Shown here: positions 31,201 to 40,200 of the stretch, in pieces
Layout of the letters: each line of letters starts with the position of its first letter
Numbering within the stretch: position 1 is the stretch's first letter
Source of the DNA: a plasmid
DNA: 46,161 nt
Assembly (NCBI RefSeq): GCF_054482595.1
Contig: NZ_JBTHVH010000006.1
Direction: 5' to 3' (one strand)
Position numbers: made by a program

Positions 31201-34200
31201 GTCGCCCCCTGCGATAGCCAATCTCCAGAGCAATTTTATCCAGTTCCTCACGAGAAGCTGAGGGCAGGTAGAGTGTATTACGTTGGGGCTTGCGTCTCGT
31301 TGCGGTTTTTTTTCGGGTAGCAGTCATTTTTCTTCCGTTTCATTTTGTGGGTTAAGCTTCTCTCTGTGATGTAGTGGATGAAAGCCATACTTCTTTGCTG
31401 CGGATTATCCATGAGTAGAATTTCAGCAAAATCGTGTGGAATTGATTTCCTTAAAAGATTTGCCTGAGCTGTTGTATGTGATTGTCTGTACAAAAGCTCC
31501 GCCATCACATCTTCTGGTACAGGTAAAGGCTCACCGCCAAATGAGATAAAGCGTTGTACGTAAGGGATAGCAGTTATTGTAGTGGAATGAACCTCTTCAA
31601 AATCTGCCTGGATAAAAAGATAACCGGGAAAAAGCGGCAAACGTCTTTCTCGATATGAAATTATCTTATCCGGGCGACGATACCTTTCAGTCTCCATAGG
31701 ACAGAAGTAAGAGAAGTTCAGGCGTTCGAGATGAGCAAAAACTGCTGCAAATCTCGTAGTGGTGAATTGCAAAACATACCATTCCATAGTTTTTCCTTTC
31801 AGGCGCTCTCTCGACTCGGATGACCCCGAATCAGAGAAAAAAAACAAAAGGACAAATTTACATCTCATAAAAACTTTATCAGCTACATGTGCTGCGTTCA
31901 ACCACACAAGCAGATCTTTAGATCGCATTTACGACACATTTCATTTTGTTTGTGCTTGTATTTTATTTATATCTAGATACATATGCTATTTGATAACAAA
32001 AAAGCAGATCGATTGATCACCATGCGCTTATTTTATAGTCAAGTTAACTAAATTTTTTACCGCTAGTTACTTTTTACAAAAACTCTGCTAACAAGATAAA
32101 TAAATCGATCTTAATCAATAAGTTACCGGAGAGTATGAATTATCCTAAACGAATTCCGATTTTCACTTTCTGTTCGCTTTGAATCATCGACTGTTTTATT
32201 TGCGAGAAATTTCTCATCTGGAGTTGCTGTTTCTTAATCATCTCCGCGCTGTTCAGCACCAGCTCTTTACTGGATGAAGAGATTCTGTCTATGCCCTTAA
32301 CCCCCAGGTTCTCTAGCTGCCACTCATTCCTGTGTGCAGTCTTCCAGCCATGCTGTACACCGTTCTTATCAAGTGCAGGGATTTTCACCTCCTTTTGTCC
32401 TAACTTCTTCAGCTTAACAAGATCACCTTTCTTAACGTTCTCGCGAGTGGTTAACTCACCAAAATCAGCCCCCCAATATGTTTTCTCCACGCCCTTGTTC
32501 AGTGTCTTAAGCTTTATGAAATGCTGCTTTGGTTTGGTTTTATCGTTCTGATAATGGTCGTAGCCAACATCAACAACCTCATAAACGCCCTTCTGTCGTT
32601 TTGGCGCTGTTTTGTGCGCATCTTTAATAGACTGGTTAAGTCCATGCTGCTGCTTATGAGTGGCTTTAACGTCATAGCCCTTCATCTTCAGCTCTTCACA
32701 AAAACCTGTACGAATTTCCCGTAAATCTTTTTTCCTGATATCAGCTCGTTTACCGTCATTATCACGAATACGAAAAACGACATGCACGTGTGGATGTTCT
32801 TTTTTGTCGTTATGATAGCCAAGCACAAAACGATGATTTGGGTACTTCTTGTTCATCGTTTTCCTGACAGACTCAAGCAGATCTTCAGGTTTTACCTTTG
32901 CTGATACAGGCGGTGAAAACACAATATTTTGGGTTACTTTTTTATTTTCCTTACCTTTATCATCGAAAACATTTTGAGGGTCATTAGCACGATCTATCAT
33001 GTGCTCTTTAGCCTCCTGAATCTCATCACCTTTCCATACCTGACCGCTTTCACTCATCACTGGCAGCTCTGACTCCCGGCTCATATAGTCAATACTGTTT
33101 CGAACTCCCTGCCGGGTAATCGCACCTCCTGAGATTTTGACAACAACCTCCTTACTGGCACCCTTGCGGTTGATACGTTCCTGAACGTTGCGTTGATAGT
33201 TTTTACCACCATTTTTAACTTTATGGGCGAAAGCAGACTTGCGGCCAGCTTCAGAGGACTTACGCTTAACCCTGAATTCCTTGTCAACATAAACGCCCAT
33301 GATTACACCTCAACCTTGTTAGAAACAGTTCGCCCTTTGCATAACATAATGTAGTTTTCAAACTCACTTTTGAGACTCATTATCTCTGAACTCAACCGCT
33401 CAGCGTCCTGATAGAACCCATCTTTATCAAGTACTCTGGCATTATCATTAACGATAATATAATGAAAGTTTCGCCCTATTTTATCTATTGCATTACGGCA
33501 ACGATTCATCACCAGAAGTTCCTGATCGAAAAAATCAAGTTCATTTTCAAGTGTCGTCTGGATTCGATAACGACATTCTCTGGATAAATTCCAGCCATGA
33601 CGATGAGCCGCTTTCTCTATTAAAGTTCTTTGTTTCCCTGTCAAATACATTGTGGTTTTGATAAAATCATCATTGTCTTTTGACACATTAACATCTTCAT
33701 TTTTAACCTTGCTTTTCAGTAAAGCATTGGCAAGCAGCTTCATTCCTTTTGCCACGGTTAAACCCGGTTCATCTGGATAAAGTGTTTTAAGACAATCAAG
33801 TAGATCATCATGTTGGCTTTCTTCAATCCTGAATTGAACTTTTTTCATAAAACTCTCCAACAAGAACCGACTGTAGGTCACCGGGCAAACGTTGCGGAAT
33901 GGCGTCAGAGACGTCATTTTGCGGCGTTTGCCCTATCCTGCATCGCAGTGAACTACCTCCACACATAAATTGTGCTTCAGCGTCCATCGAAATGCAAAAA
34001 ATGAAAGGCTATCGTGGCTGTGATCTGGTGCGTCTGCGACCGGAGACAACGGATTCGCGGCTAACTTGGGCGGAAATAAATTCGCTACGCGAATGGCCTG
34101 GCAGGGGGCGCGAGCGCTGTTTTACGGAATATACAAAAAAAGCACCTCCCGTAAACGGGAGGGCTTCGGCGATTCAGGAACGGGAATTTTATTCTGCCTC

Positions 34201-37200: not shown

Positions 37201-40200
37201 AGGGATTTCCGAAAGAGGCGCGAACTGTAGTTACATAATGCGCTGTCGTAACATCGCGCCGGAGACGTTCGCCAGGACTGGCGAACCAACAAGCCCGAAT
37301 GAGAGCGATAACCCCCCTCACCCCTGCCAGGCCAATTTCTGACTATCAGACGATGTTTAGCCTGTCGCAGTTAGCGCGTGAGCTTGCGAACGGTACGCCG
37401 GGTCAGTGTGAAACACTGGCGCGGGGCGCTGTATCTGCGCGTTATGAGATGCGTTAGCAGCGAATTACGGGGCGGGTTGCTGAAACCGATTGATGCCTGA
37501 CAGCAAAAAATGAATCCGGGCGCCAGCTGCTGCACGAAAATTGCCAGCAAAAAACACTTGGCCATCCTCGCCGGTCGTGAAATTTTGCTGGCGTAAGAAA
37601 TAATCCCCCCGGTATGAGGGGCTTGTCTGAAAGGTTAGTGGTTGGGCTTACTGAGAGTGAACTGTAACCCGGCTACTGCTGCAAGCTGTGCAAGTGTTGT
37701 GATGGTCGGGTTTCCGTTCGGGGATAATGCGCGGTAGATACTCTGACGAGCAAGGCCGGATTTTTTGGCCGCCTCTGTTATACCCCCTGATTAGGGATCA
37801 GGTTAAAAACGAGCTGTATGACGTTCTAAGCGCATTTTACCCGCTCCGTTGAACCATGACCGGGTTAAAGCGGTTAAAACGCCTCTGAGGGCTTTTGAGA
37901 GCATTTAAGAATTGGATCGGAAAAGGATCCCGTCTGGATCTTTTAGAGAGATTACACCGCTCGCCGCAGCCGAACGACAGGGCGAAGCCCGCGAGTGAGC
38001 GAGGAAGCGGAATTTCCACGGGGTTTCAATAGAGCACTTACGCGCTAAGGTTAATATTTGCTCAATTTTTGGTGGTGCAGTGCTCAGGGAGGCCAGACGG
38101 ATCTATCCTCTGGATTTATGCTGAGTTATCCACAGACGCTGTGCATTAAAAGCCTTATATTTTCTTCTTGATCTTAAAAACTTAAAAACTTAGCTCGCTT
38201 CAATTACCTGAAAATTATGGAAAAAAATTGCTAAAGGTGAGAGGATTTTTCACGTAAGGTGAGAGGATTTTTCACGTAAGGTGAGAAGATTTTTAAGTTA
38301 AGGTAGTTAGATTTTTCACTAAAGATGAGAGGATTTTTCACGTAAGGTGAGAAGATTTTTAACGGTTTCCACAGTTTGACTGAACATCAAGTGAAACATG
38401 CGGTTGTTGCTATCTTTAGATATGAAGATCCTCAGATCTTCATATCTAAAGGTGAGAGGTTTTTTAATTAAAGGTTGTATTGTTGTCTTGAATTACAACC
38501 TTTGTGGGGTTATGATTTGCCTACATAGGAAAGGTTATATGAGGCTTATCGTGAAGACAGTAACGGGATTAACGAAAGTTAGACATAGAAATGAAGTTGG
38601 GGTAACTCTTGCATCCCTTTCCCTTTCAGCAAAAAGAGTGCTTTTTCTGGCTCTTTGCCAGATTGATACAAAGGAAATGTTAGATGATGATATTTTGGAG
38701 GTTGATGCTGACTTTTTTTCAAAAGCTACTTCTTTAGATAAATATGCCTCTTATGCAGCTCTGAAAGAGGGAGCTAAAGTTCTTTCTTCAACTACGTTAG
38801 TTTTAAACAGAGATGATTTAAAAAATTTGGCTGATGAACTTGGGATACTATCATCTAAGAATAAAATACCTGATCGCTTGGATTTAAACTTAACAGAATT
38901 CTGTGCCTATTACGATCATCTTGCAACTGTACGGATAAAATTCACAAATACAGCTAAGCGATATTTTTCTAAGTTGATTGGTTCTGAAAATAGATATACC
39001 ACTCAGGTATTGAAATCAGTTGTGTTGTTGAACAGTGTAAACTCAACAAACCTTTATCAAGTCATTAGGAAATATTACAGTCAGAATAGTTCAAAAAAAT
39101 CTTTTGATATATCCGTGGATGATTTAAAAGAGGAAATGGGACTTTATACTATTGAGGAAGGGGAGAAGAAATATAAGTATCCTAAATACTCATTTTTTGT
39201 TCGTGATGTTATCAATAAAAGCATTAATGAGATAATTGAGAAAACGGAAATAAATCAGTTATCTTTCTCTGTTGTTGGGAAAAAAGGGAGAATGGCTCAC
39301 ATGCTTAGATTTGAGTTTAGTATAAATGAAAAATCCTCATCCTTTTCGGAAGATGATATGGCATTTTTAGAGGAGTTTGACAAAGTCGTTCCACCAAAAA
39401 AGAATAAGTGAGGCAAAACATGGCTAAAATATATGAGTTTCCGCAGGGAGCCGAACGAAGTAAGCTGAAAAAAGAAATCATCCGGGAACGTAAAAAACGA
39501 TTGCGAGAAACGAACGGTAACCCGGTTATCCGGCACGCTAAATGGTTCTGGTTTTATCTACGTCTTGCTACGGCTGGCGCACTGCATTTAGTCTCTGTTA
39601 TTTCTCTGGCAGTCCTGGGGGCTTTCAGTAAAGCTATTTTCTGGATTGGTGGAATGCTCTGTGTTGTTACATGGTTCCACCTTGAGCGCCAGTTCTGGAC
39701 GCCGCAAAATTTCACGATTCCAGTAATCGTAACGCTGTGGGGATTGAGTTTGTTTGCCACTCCCCTGATGGAGCTGCTTAACAAAAAAATGCCGTGGTAT
39801 CGTCTTCTGGTTCCTGATGCAAAGCACACTAGCACTGAGGCAACCAATGATGATCAGCCGTGAAGCAACAATGTTATCCAGTCGGCTTGCAGTGCTTCTT
39901 TCAGCCTTTTATCATCGGTTAATCATAGCGCACGAGGCGAGTTCTTTTCACTGCGATGCAGGATAGGGCAAACGCCGCAAAATGACGTCTCTGACGCCAT
40001 TCCGCAACGTTTGCCCGGTGACCTACAGTCGGTTCTTGTTGGAGAGAGTTATGAAATATCAGGTTAAAGAGTTTATTAACGAAAAATATTCTAAGGCTGT
40101 TAATATTTTAAAGGATAACCTTAAAGAACACTACCATATTTTTTATGGTTTGAGATTAAGTGAGATTCTTTTTCCTGCCAGCGAATACGGCTCTGAAATG

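What the first reader, a model, noticed from the sequence alone, without database searches (positions are those of the whole stretch)
33941..39958. Inside the twin-oriT segment, every gene is oriented so that the predicted transferred strand is its template
With the nick polarity inferred above, both oriTs send the enclosed 6-kb segment into the recipient first. Copy A leads with the + strand from 33941 upward. Copy B leads with the minus strand from 39958 downward.

All eight genes from 34189 to 37045 are on the minus strand and point toward oriT-A: the 85-aa, 54-aa and 112-aa ORFs, the XRE HTH, the 93-aa and 183-aa ORFs, the acidic 79-aa protein and the J-domain protein. pir and bis are on the + strand and point toward oriT-B. 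The vegetative origin lies between the two groups.

For each half, the incoming single strand is therefore the transcription template. This is the arrangement described for leading-region establishment and anti-defence genes in F-like plasmids. It singles out the uncharacterised 34.2-37.0 kb genes as early-establishment or anti-defence candidates. The strongly acidic 79-aa protein (net charge about -13) is a possible DNA mimic.
Basis: inference. Interest (0 to 1): 0.55.

Follow-up and report, generated by a model that had tools for sequence, protein, structure and literature searches.

The report
IncX plasmid leading-segment gene orientation

Summary
The window is a complete 46,161-bp IncX3 blaNDM-5 plasmid. 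The "twin oriT" is the known R6K-type long inverted repeat that carries oriT-alpha and oriT-beta.

The geometry is correct. RP4-type nick motifs sit at 33940|33941 (+) and 39959|39958 (-). Eight minus-strand genes point to oriT-A. pir and bis point to oriT-B. The iterons lie between the two groups.

The orientation is not diagnostic. Outside the segment, 34 of 37 backbone genes are also on the minus strand. In plasmid F the tra genes I inspected (traM, traJ, traY) share the orientation of the leading genes.

No Frpo-like single-strand promoter hairpin lies upstream of either operon. The F control gave 95 pairs; here the best is 21 or fewer.

Both operons start with a duplicated sigma-70 promoter. 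A perfect dyad operator abuts its -10 box. The operator changes symmetrically between plasmid lineages, alongside the operon's own HTH protein.

No known anti-defence family or fold was found. The acidic 78-aa protein (net charge -13) is an IncX3-restricted orphan. The 183-aa protein has only a generic chaperone-like fold. R6K, which carries the cluster, still induces SOS in recipients.

The J-domain cassette recurs next to rep or ori in at least two other plasmid families. That points to an establishment or replication role, with expression by repressor-free burst after entry.

The parts
33843..33952 (+). Long inverted repeat arm A, carrying oriT-A (oriT-alpha of R6K-type plasmids). It holds a hairpin at 33883-33933 and the nick motif TATCCTG|C, with the predicted nick at 33940|33941 on the + strand. 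It also covers the 5' end of taxA.
   Evidence: The motif is conserved in IncX1/2/3/5. The literature calls this the long inverted repeat with oriT (PMC3402527 and PMC3332091).
34145..34162 (-). Intrinsic-terminator-like hairpin followed by a T-run. It closes operon 2, about 200 nt before the nick.
34189..34446 (-). o85, an 85-aa basic protein of unknown function. It is conserved in all IncX groups checked (64-78% identity).
   Evidence: No family hit.
34443..34607 (-). o54, a 54-aa protein conserved in IncX1/2/3/5.
34682..35020 (-). o112, the first gene of operon 2. Only its C-terminal half is conserved in IncX1.
   Evidence: No PDB sequence hit.
35016..35113 (-). Promoter module, copy 2. It contains a -35 box (TTGCAT), the dyad operator ACCATCATATGATGGT abutting the -10 box (TATAAT), a 5'UTR with two hairpins, and the ribosome-binding site GGGAG.
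   Evidence: (repeat D3).
35114..35356 (-). 80-aa XRE/MqsA-like HTH protein, the last gene of operon 1. It is the candidate repressor of both promoter modules.
   Evidence: PHROG transcriptional repressor, E = 1.8e-5. Its predicted recognition helix changes in IncX1, where the operator also changes.
35346..35627 (-). o93, a 93-aa protein of unknown function. It is part of the portable cassette.
35624..36175 (-). o183. The model shows two small alpha/beta domains joined by a long helix. The N-terminal domain has a T3SS-chaperone / YbjN / DUF2170-like fold.
36235..36471 (-). o78, an acidic 78-aa protein (net charge -13, pI 4.3) predicted to be three helices. It is found only in IncX3-like plasmids and is followed by a terminator-like hairpin at 36224-36205.
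36530..37045 (-). 171-aa J-domain protein (J domain plus a C-terminal domain), the first gene of operon 1. The true start is the ATG at 37045.
   Evidence: Pfam DnaJ 8e-11. phrog_15863 1e-38. Start codon inferred from the conserved ribosome-binding site. Family distribution.
37041..37138 (-). Promoter module, copy 1, 82% identical to copy 2. The operator is ACCATCAAATGATGGT and the extended -10 box is TGGTATAAT.
37640..38020 (-). Decayed toxin-antitoxin remnant: the C-terminus of a HigA-like antidote, broken by stop codons. It occupies the slot that holds stbDE in IncX1.
38222..38475 (+). Gamma-type vegetative origin. It has seven 22-bp iterons (38222-38384), a 20-bp perfect palindrome (38411-38454) and an eighth iteron-like box in the pir promoter region.
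38398..39411 (+). pir (pi initiator). The RefSeq start is 38398. By comparison with R6K pi, whose sequence I recalled from memory, the likely start is about 38539.
   Evidence: The likely start is an inference.
39408..39863 (+). bis.
   Evidence: Named as in PMC3332091.
39947..40056 (-). Long inverted repeat arm B, carrying oriT-B (oriT-beta). The predicted nick is at 39959|39958 on the - strand. The arm also covers the 5' end of ddp3.

Best explanation
**What the segment is.** The 6-kb segment bounded by the inverted repeats is the IncX basic replicon (gamma-type iterons, pir, bis). Beside it sits a conserved cluster of small genes arranged as two operons:
- Operon 1: J-domain protein, o78, o183, o93, HTH.
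- Operon 2: o112, o54, o85.

**Why the genes point as they do.**
- The eight genes simply continue the minus-strand orientation of almost the whole backbone.
- pir and bis diverge from them across the origin. The same "rep <- ori -> J-domain cassette" layout is seen in another plasmid family.
- The incoming strand is therefore formally the template. That property is shared by most of the plasmid, and there is no sign that it is what drives expression here.

**How expression probably works (inferred).**
- Each operon has a copy of a strong sigma-70 promoter. Its spacer and -10 box are overlapped by a perfect 16-bp dyad operator.
- The small HTH protein encoded at the end of operon 1 most likely binds that operator.
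- In a new recipient there is no repressor. Once the complementary strand is made, both operons would fire in a burst and then shut themselves down.

**Likely function (inferred).** The cassette probably acts in establishment or replication. A plausible mechanism is that the J-domain protein recruits host DnaK to remodel the initiator or other incoming proteins. A known anti-defence activity is less likely.

**Shown versus inferred.**
- Shown: the geometry, the promoter-operator architecture and its covariation between lineages, the absence of large hairpins, and the absence of anti-defence homology.
- Inferred: HTH binding to the operator, the burst kinetics, and the function.
For: - **Identity.** The window is a rotation of NZ_CP024825.1 (IncX3, MOBP, MPF_T) with one mismatch.
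- **Backbone co-orientation.** 34 of 37 backbone genes outside the segment are minus. In F, the leading genes and traM/traJ/traY are all on one strand.
- **Duplicated promoter module.**
  - It is present twice per plasmid in IncX1/2/3/5.
  - The dyad changes symmetrically from ACCATCA..TGATGGT to ACCTGCA..TGCAGGT in IncX1.
  - Both-sides-changed pairs are kept at alignment columns 21/30 and 22/29.
  - The putative recognition helix of the HTH also has substitutions in IncX1.
- **Same architecture in other plasmids.**
  - Aeromonas, Photorhabdus (two plasmids) and Hafnia show other lineage-specific dyads: CTCCCCAAATGGGGAG, CTCACCAAAAGGTGAG, TACGTC..GACGTA and CTCCC..GGGAG.
  - A small HTH gene closes the cassette. 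Pfam identifies it as HTH in Aeromonas and P. africana. By size and position only, the same holds in P. temperata and Hafnia.
- **No single-strand promoter.** The scan recovers the F Frpo hairpin upstream of ssb (95 pairs, -70 kcal/mol). It finds at most 21 pairs and -12.8 kcal/mol upstream of operon 1, and nothing upstream of operon 2.
- **Cassette sits beside a rep gene in other replicons.** It follows an IncFII repA in Photorhabdus. It diverges from a Rep3 gene in Hafnia.
- **Conservation shows the genes are real.** o85, o54 and the HTH are 59-84% identical between IncX3 and IncX1.
Against: - No experiment shows that the HTH binds the operator, or that the genes are induced on entry.
- A repressor-controlled burst does not exclude an anti-defence role. 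Anti-CRISPR operons are controlled in the same way.
- In the Aeromonas plasmid the cassette heads a same-strand run that contains a PF03230 antirestriction gene.
- Small single-strand promoters (the class 2 and 3 types described in PMC12672017) might escape a scan tuned on Frpo.
- The DnaK/initiator idea rests only on gene neighbourhood and on general knowledge of chaperone activation of iteron initiators.
- IncX1 plasmids lack the J-domain and o183 genes yet use the same kind of replicon.
Confidence: 0.55

Rival explanations
1. The genes are oriented so that the incoming single strand is transcribed directly, as in F and IncI1 leading regions. This would give immediate expression of anti-defence or establishment proteins, with the acidic 78-aa protein acting as a DNA mimic.
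For: - The orientation and position are correct.
- The cluster starts about 250 nt after the predicted nick.
- The proteins are small and of unknown function. One has net charge -13.
- In an Aeromonas plasmid the homologous cassette lies in a same-strand run with an antirestriction gene.
- Samuel et al. 2024 report this orientation rule for leading-region anti-defence genes.
Against: - No large stem-loop that could rebuild the -35 and -10 boxes lies upstream of either operon, whereas the F control is found easily.
- The promoters are conventional duplex promoters.
- The orientation is shared by 92% of backbone genes.
- There is no homology or fold match to ArdA, Ocr, KlcA, PsiB, SSB or Acr families.
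- R6Kdrd induces SOS strongly.
- In any single transfer event only one half of the segment can be template.
Confidence: 0.15
2. The divergent orientation reflects co-orientation of transcription with replication forks leaving the gamma (or alpha/beta) origin. It would then be a constraint of the replicon rather than of conjugation.
For: - The strand switch and the minimum of cumulative GC skew both fall at about 37-38 kb, at the iterons.
- The same "rep <- ori -> cassette" layout occurs in a Hafnia Rep3 plasmid.
Against: - GC skew turns negative again beyond 40 kb, where genes are again on the minus strand. Skew therefore tracks gene strand, not fork direction.
- R6K replication is described as starting at alpha or beta and proceeding sequentially in one direction. 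That is my recollection of the literature and was not checked here. It does not predict simple divergence from gamma.
Confidence: 0.15
3. The orientation has no function of its own. It is inherited from the way the IncX ancestor was assembled: an inverted duplication of the oriT-taxA' region next to a pir replicon. It persists because operons are hard to flip.
For: - All the IncX groups share one ancestral layout, so there is effectively one observation.
- Only three transcription units are involved, giving P = 0.125 even under random orientation.
- Two database records carry the whole segment inverted without any other change.
Against: - The layout has been kept across deep divergence (o183 is 33% identical between IncX3 and R6K) despite gene turnover inside the cluster: o78 was gained, and stbDE and the J-domain cassette occupy the same slot in different groups.
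- Inserted genes always took the same orientation.
Confidence: 0.15

Closest known systems
R6K / IncX long inverted repeats with oriT-alpha and oriT-beta flanking the alpha-gamma-beta replicon (Avila et al. 1996; Nunez et al. 1997; Flashner et al. 1996, as cited in PMC3402527 and PMC3332091)
   Same: The anatomy is the same: taxC-taxA, inverted repeat/oriT, small genes, iterons, pir, bis, inverted repeat/oriT, ddp3. R6K itself has the same order and orientation. The oriT core is nearly identical.
   Different: Nothing essential. This plasmid is IncX3. It carries the extra acidic o78 gene and a decayed toxin-antitoxin remnant.
F / IncI1 leading regions with Frpo/ssi single-strand promoters driving ssb, psiB, ardA and klcA (Masai and Arai 1997; Samuel et al. 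2024, PMC11541004; Wen et al. 2025, PMC12672017)
   Same: The cluster lies immediately after the nick on the transferred strand. The genes point toward oriT, so the transferred strand is the template. The genes are small and mostly uncharacterised.
   Different: There is no large hairpin promoter and no ssb, psiB, ardA or klcA homologue. The promoters are duplex promoters with an operator. The replicon itself lies inside the leading segment, and there are two oppositely oriented oriTs.
Repressor-controlled entry-burst operons: CUP promoters with ArdK/ArdR in the IncN pKM101 leading region, and Aca-controlled anti-CRISPR operons (the former recalled from the literature; the latter in PMC13551039, listed)
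   Same: A strong promoter is repeated in front of several leading-region operons. A dyad operator overlaps the promoter. A small HTH regulator is encoded in the operon.
   Different: There is no sequence similarity to IncN. blastn with the module found it twice per record in IncX-sized enterobacterial plasmids, plus one partial hit in a Pantoea plasmid. The cargo is a J-domain protein and unknowns rather than ArdA, ArdB or Acr. Repression was not tested.
Phage- and plasmid-encoded J-domain co-chaperones (for example phage RB43 Rki; recalled from the literature)
   Same: A J domain is fused to a specific C-terminal domain and encoded by a mobile element. The protein matches phage family phrog_15863 over both domains.
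   Different: The client protein is unknown. Here the gene is embedded in a four-gene autoregulated cassette next to plasmid origins.

Membership tests
IncX (R6K-type) twin-oriT replicon segment | Two copies of the oriT core in long inverted repeats that flank the replicon | tested here: met
   110-nt arms, 98% complementary. The same core is present in IncX1/2/3/5.
IncX (R6K-type) twin-oriT replicon segment | taxA/taxC (ddp1/ddp2) outside one arm and ddp3 outside the other, with pir, bis and 22-bp iterons inside | tested here: met
   Annotation. Relaxase Pfam hit. DDP3 NCBIfam hit at 2e-50. Iterons.
MOBP (RP4-type) oriT | Nick-region consensus YATCCTG|Y lying 3' of an inverted repeat on the transferred strand | tested here: met
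   TATCCTGC begins immediately after the hairpin on both arms, and the predicted nick lies 7 nt past the hairpin end.
MOBP (RP4-type) oriT | An experimentally mapped nick and transfer polarity | not testable with these tools
   The R6K oriT paper is not in the library. Polarity is inferred.
F-like leading region with single-strand promoters | Genes lie directly downstream of the nick and are oriented so that the transferred strand is the template | tested here: met
   The feature is not specific: 34 of 37 other backbone genes share it.
F-like leading region with single-strand promoters | A large stem-loop on the transferred strand upstream of the operons that rebuilds the -35 and -10 boxes (Frpo/ssi) | tested here: not met
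   F control: 95 pairs, -70 kcal/mol. Here at most 21 pairs upstream of operon 1 and none upstream of operon 2.
F-like leading region with single-strand promoters | The presence of ssb, psiB, ardA, klcA or other recognised anti-defence genes | tested here: not met
   Pfam, NCBIfam, PADLOC and PHROGs give only HTH and J-domain hits. The o183 profile against PsiB gives probability 0.2%.
F-like leading region with single-strand promoters | Transient expression in transconjugants before second-strand synthesis | not testable with these tools
   This needs RNA-seq or reporters in recipients.
Repressor-controlled entry-burst operon (CUP/ArdK-like or Aca-like logic) | A strong promoter overlapped by a dyad operator and repeated in front of the operons | tested here: met
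   Two copies per plasmid. The dyad abuts the -10 box and shows symmetric covariation across six lineages.
Repressor-controlled entry-burst operon (CUP/ArdK-like or Aca-like logic) | A cognate repressor encoded in the operon that binds the operator | tested here: inconclusive
   An HTH gene is always present. Its recognition helix differs where the operator differs. Binding was not tested.
Repressor-controlled entry-burst operon (CUP/ArdK-like or Aca-like logic) | Sequence homology to IncN CUP elements | tested here: not met
   blastn with the module lists only IncX-sized enterobacterial plasmids carrying two copies each, plus one partial Pantoea hit. No IncN-like record appears in the sample shown.
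DNA-mimic anti-restriction proteins (ArdA, Ocr and similar) | A strongly acidic small protein | tested here: met
   o78 has net charge -13 and pI 4.3.
DNA-mimic anti-restriction proteins (ArdA, Ocr and similar) | Sequence or fold similarity to a known mimic | tested here: not met
PsiB-type SOS inhibitor | Homology to PsiB and suppression of SOS on entry | tested here: not met

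The most novel reading that the evidence does not exclude
The J-domain -> o183 -> o93 -> HTH cassette may be a portable, self-repressing plasmid establishment module. 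It would fire once on entry and use host DnaK either to activate the incoming replicon (pi or other Rep proteins) or to disable a host factor. The IncX3-specific acidic o78 would be an add-on DNA or protein mimic. Because IncX can send either strand from two opposed oriTs, the replicon together with this module would always enter first.
Probability: 0.2. Interest if true: 0.6.

Novelty: new member of a known kind. Interest (0 to 1): 0.3.

Why it matters
IncX3 is the main vehicle of blaNDM-5 worldwide, so anything that governs its establishment in new hosts is of practical interest.

The result here is mostly a correction. Strand orientation alone should not be used to nominate early anti-defence genes on plasmids whose whole backbone points one way.

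Two testable leads remain:
- A conserved, duplicated promoter-operator module with a probable HTH autorepressor.
- A J-domain cassette that recurs next to plasmid rep genes and origins in several replicon families.

If that cassette does control establishment, it would be a target for blocking the spread of IncX plasmids.

Full report
**Identity of the window.** The 6.3-kb region matches hundreds of 46,161-bp plasmids at 100% identity. The window is a rotation of NZ_CP024825.1 with one mismatch. That record is typed IncX3, MOBP, MPF_T and carries blaNDM-5. The window is therefore a complete, circular and very well-sampled plasmid.

**The twin oriT.**
- The two arms are 33843-33952 and 39947-40056. 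They are 110 nt long and 98% complementary.
- Each arm holds a 24+24-nt hairpin followed by TATCCTG|C, the nick-region consensus of RP4-type (MOBP) origins.
- The same core is present twice, in inverted orientation, in IncX1, IncX2 (R6K), IncX5 and one untyped relative (L005).
- The literature already describes this. Two oriTs within long inverted repeats are described as a characteristic so far unique to conjugative IncX plasmids (PMC3402527). oriT-alpha and oriT-beta lie in the same repeats as the alpha and beta replication origins (PMC3332091).
- A recent IncX3 study labels both oriTs after Avila et al. 1996 (PMC11915502).

**Nick polarity.** In relaxase systems the hairpin lies 5' of the nick on the transferred strand and enters last. 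This is an inference. I could not read a paper that maps the R6K nick.

**The observation.**
- All eight minus-strand ORFs exist and are annotated CDS. pir and bis are on the + strand. The seven iterons (38222-38384) lie between the two groups.
- For oriT-A the transferred + strand is the template of the eight genes. For oriT-B the transferred - strand is the template of pir and bis. The geometry is correct.

**Is it more than chance?**
- Outside the segment, 34 of 37 backbone genes are on the minus strand. The eight genes end a run in which 38 of 39 genes are minus. That run includes the T4SS, taxC and taxA.
- At the backbone rate, 8 of 8 minus has a probability of about 0.5.
- F behaves the same way. 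In NC_002483 the leading genes and traM, traJ and traY are all on one strand, so the transferred strand is the template for both.
- The property therefore does not single out the 34.2-37.0 kb genes.
- The only departure from the background is the + orientation of the pir-bis unit. That is one transcription unit, at roughly P = 0.08-0.1, inherited by all IncX plasmids from one ancestor.

**Would orientation matter here?**
- In F and IncI1, early expression depends on large stem-loops on the transferred strand that rebuild the -35 and -10 boxes. Ordinary promoters wait for the duplex to form (PMC12672017).
- My scan of the transferred strand recovers the F hairpin upstream of ssb: 95 unbranched pairs at -70 kcal/mol.
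- In the IncX3 segment the largest unbranched hairpin has 59 weak pairs, in the AT-rich iteron region.
- Upstream of operon 1 the best hairpin has 21 pairs at -12.8 kcal/mol. Nothing lies upstream of operon 2. The fold of 37040-37340 is a branched structure.
- Smaller promoter classes cannot be excluded. There is no positive evidence for single-strand transcription.

**What drives the genes instead.**
- A 98-nt repeat (35016-35113 and 37041-37138, 82% identical) sits directly in front of the 112-aa gene and the J-domain gene.
- Read on the coding strand, it contains a -35 box (TTGCAT), a perfect dyad ACCATCAwwTGATGGT abutting an extended -10 box (TGGTATAAT), a 5' leader with two hairpins, and GGGAG before the ATG.
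- The dyad occurs only at these two places on the plasmid.
- The module is present twice in every IncX group examined. In IncX1 both half-sites change symmetrically to ACCTGCA..TGCAGGT. Paired columns 21/30 and 22/29 keep pairing through changes on both sides.
- The 80-aa HTH protein that ends operon 1 is the obvious candidate repressor. Its predicted recognition helix carries several substitutions in IncX1.

**The cassette in other plasmids.**
- The cassette J-domain -> o183-like -> o93-like -> small terminal protein occurs in plasmids of Aeromonas, Photorhabdus (two) and Hafnia. Pfam identifies the terminal protein as an HTH in Aeromonas and P. africana.
- A Pectobacterium contig carries the J-domain and o183-like genes, but its operator is less clear.
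- Each shows the same promoter plan but its own dyad: CTCCCCAAATGGGGAG, CTCACCAAAAGGTGAG, TACGTC..GACGTA and CTCCC..GGGAG.
- This comparative pattern is strong evidence for a repressor-operator pair that evolves together.
- It suggests a burst of expression in a repressor-free recipient followed by shut-off. That burst needs duplex DNA, so strand orientation is irrelevant to it.

**What the proteins are.**
- Only two have family hits: the HTH, and the J-domain protein (Pfam DnaJ 8e-11; phrog_15863 1e-38 over both domains). PADLOC finds nothing.
- **Acidic o78.**
  - It has net charge -13.
  - It has only 22 close relatives in 5.8 billion proteins, all in enterobacteria.
  - It is absent from R6K, IncX5 and IncX1.
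  - The model is a moderate three-helix fold (pLDDT 74.8).
  - A DNA-mimic role is neither supported nor excluded.
- **o183.**
  - It models confidently (pLDDT 93).
  - A profile comparison with F PsiB gives probability 0.2%.
- **Published phenotypes.**
  - R6Kdrd carries homologues of seven of the eight genes yet induces SOS strongly in recipients (PMC2958807).
  - No anti-restriction gene is recognised on R6K (PMC11602122).
  - A 2026 survey that includes PTU-X1 and PTU-X3 leading regions found no anti-defence system in PTU-X1 (PMC13478746).

**A better lead for function.**
- In Photorhabdus africana the cassette follows an IncFII repA, with a gap of about 770 bp between them.
- In Hafnia it diverges from a Rep3 initiator gene, mirroring pir <- ori -> J-domain in IncX.
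- DnaK/DnaJ remodelling of iteron initiators is established knowledge.
- A plasmid J-domain protein encoded beside the origin plausibly serves replication start-up in a new host. This is inference from gene neighbourhood only.
- Against it, IncX1 lacks the J-domain and o183 genes. In that slot it carries the stbDE toxin-antitoxin pair.
- In favour of some defence-related role, the Aeromonas cassette heads a same-strand run that contains a PF03230 antirestriction gene.

**Segment inversion.**
- A chimeric junction query found two records among about 1,000 IncX3 plasmids in which the whole repeat-bounded segment is inverted. I verified one of them.
- The rule that genes point to the nearest oriT survives such an inversion. 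It is a property of divergence from the origin inside a symmetric cassette.
- Whether these records are real isomers or assembly choices is unknown.

**Verdict.** The anatomy is correct and already known in outline. The orientation rule holds but is uninformative on this plasmid. The single-strand transcription and anti-defence reading lacks support. The cluster is best described as two autoregulated entry or establishment operons attached to the IncX replicon.

Noticed in passing
window 35016-35113 and 37041-37138; also L002-L006, L009, L010, L013, L015: A duplicated promoter, dyad-operator and structured-leader module sits in front of both operons. It is conserved across IncX groups and in J-domain cassettes of Aeromonas, Photorhabdus and Hafnia plasmids. 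The operator half-sites are lineage-specific but always symmetric.
   Followed up: yes
NZ_OK623716.1 (L008) and NZ_MH917281.1: In two IncX3 records the whole segment between the inverted repeats is inverted, so bis-pir lie next to taxA. This could be real recombination between the oriT repeats or an assembly choice.
   Followed up: partly
window 37640-38020 (-): A HigA-like antidote reading frame broken by stop codons, that is, a decayed toxin-antitoxin pair. It lies in the slot where IncX1 plasmids carry stbDE. The RefSeq 52-aa ORF at 37299-37457 (+) in the same GC-rich spacer looks doubtful.
   Followed up: partly
window 36205-36224 (-) and 36475-36529: The IncX3-only acidic gene o78 is bracketed by GC-rich hairpins. 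One is terminator-like and lies just before o183. The gene looks like an insertion into operon 1, and the hairpin may attenuate the downstream genes, including the HTH.
   Followed up: no
window 37150-37177 and 41593-41620: A 28-nt inverted repeat pair (CTTTACATTGTAAAG...). One copy is upstream of the J-domain promoter. The other lies between parA and the small downstream gene. It may be a shared regulator or partition-protein site.
   Followed up: no
window 38411-38454: A 20-bp perfect palindrome made of iteron-like half-sites, between the iterons and pir. The RefSeq pir start (38398) lies upstream of it and is probably too early. By comparison with R6K pi, the likely start is about 38539.
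   Followed up: no
window 9874-9961 (+): An Rfam AgrB antisense RNA hit (47.8 bits) lies beside the DinQ-like toxin gene dqlB. Together they form a type I toxin-antitoxin pair on the backbone.
   Followed up: no
window 10371-13223: A cluster of small genes around a SprT-like metalloprotease-domain protein (11303-12124). In the IncX5 relative the neighbouring gene is annotated as antirestriction protein ArdR. If IncX has recognisable anti-restriction genes, they are here and not in the twin-oriT segment.
   Followed up: partly
plasmid collection, hits H61-H70: Very small plasmids (1.5-4 kb) carry partial matches to the IncX oriT hairpin region. This suggests oriT-only hitchers on IncX relaxases.
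   Followed up: no
L013 2728-6052; L015 6970-11716: The J-domain cassette lies directly beside the replication initiator gene in an IncFII-type Photorhabdus plasmid. In a Hafnia plasmid it diverges from a Rep3-type initiator gene.
   Followed up: partly
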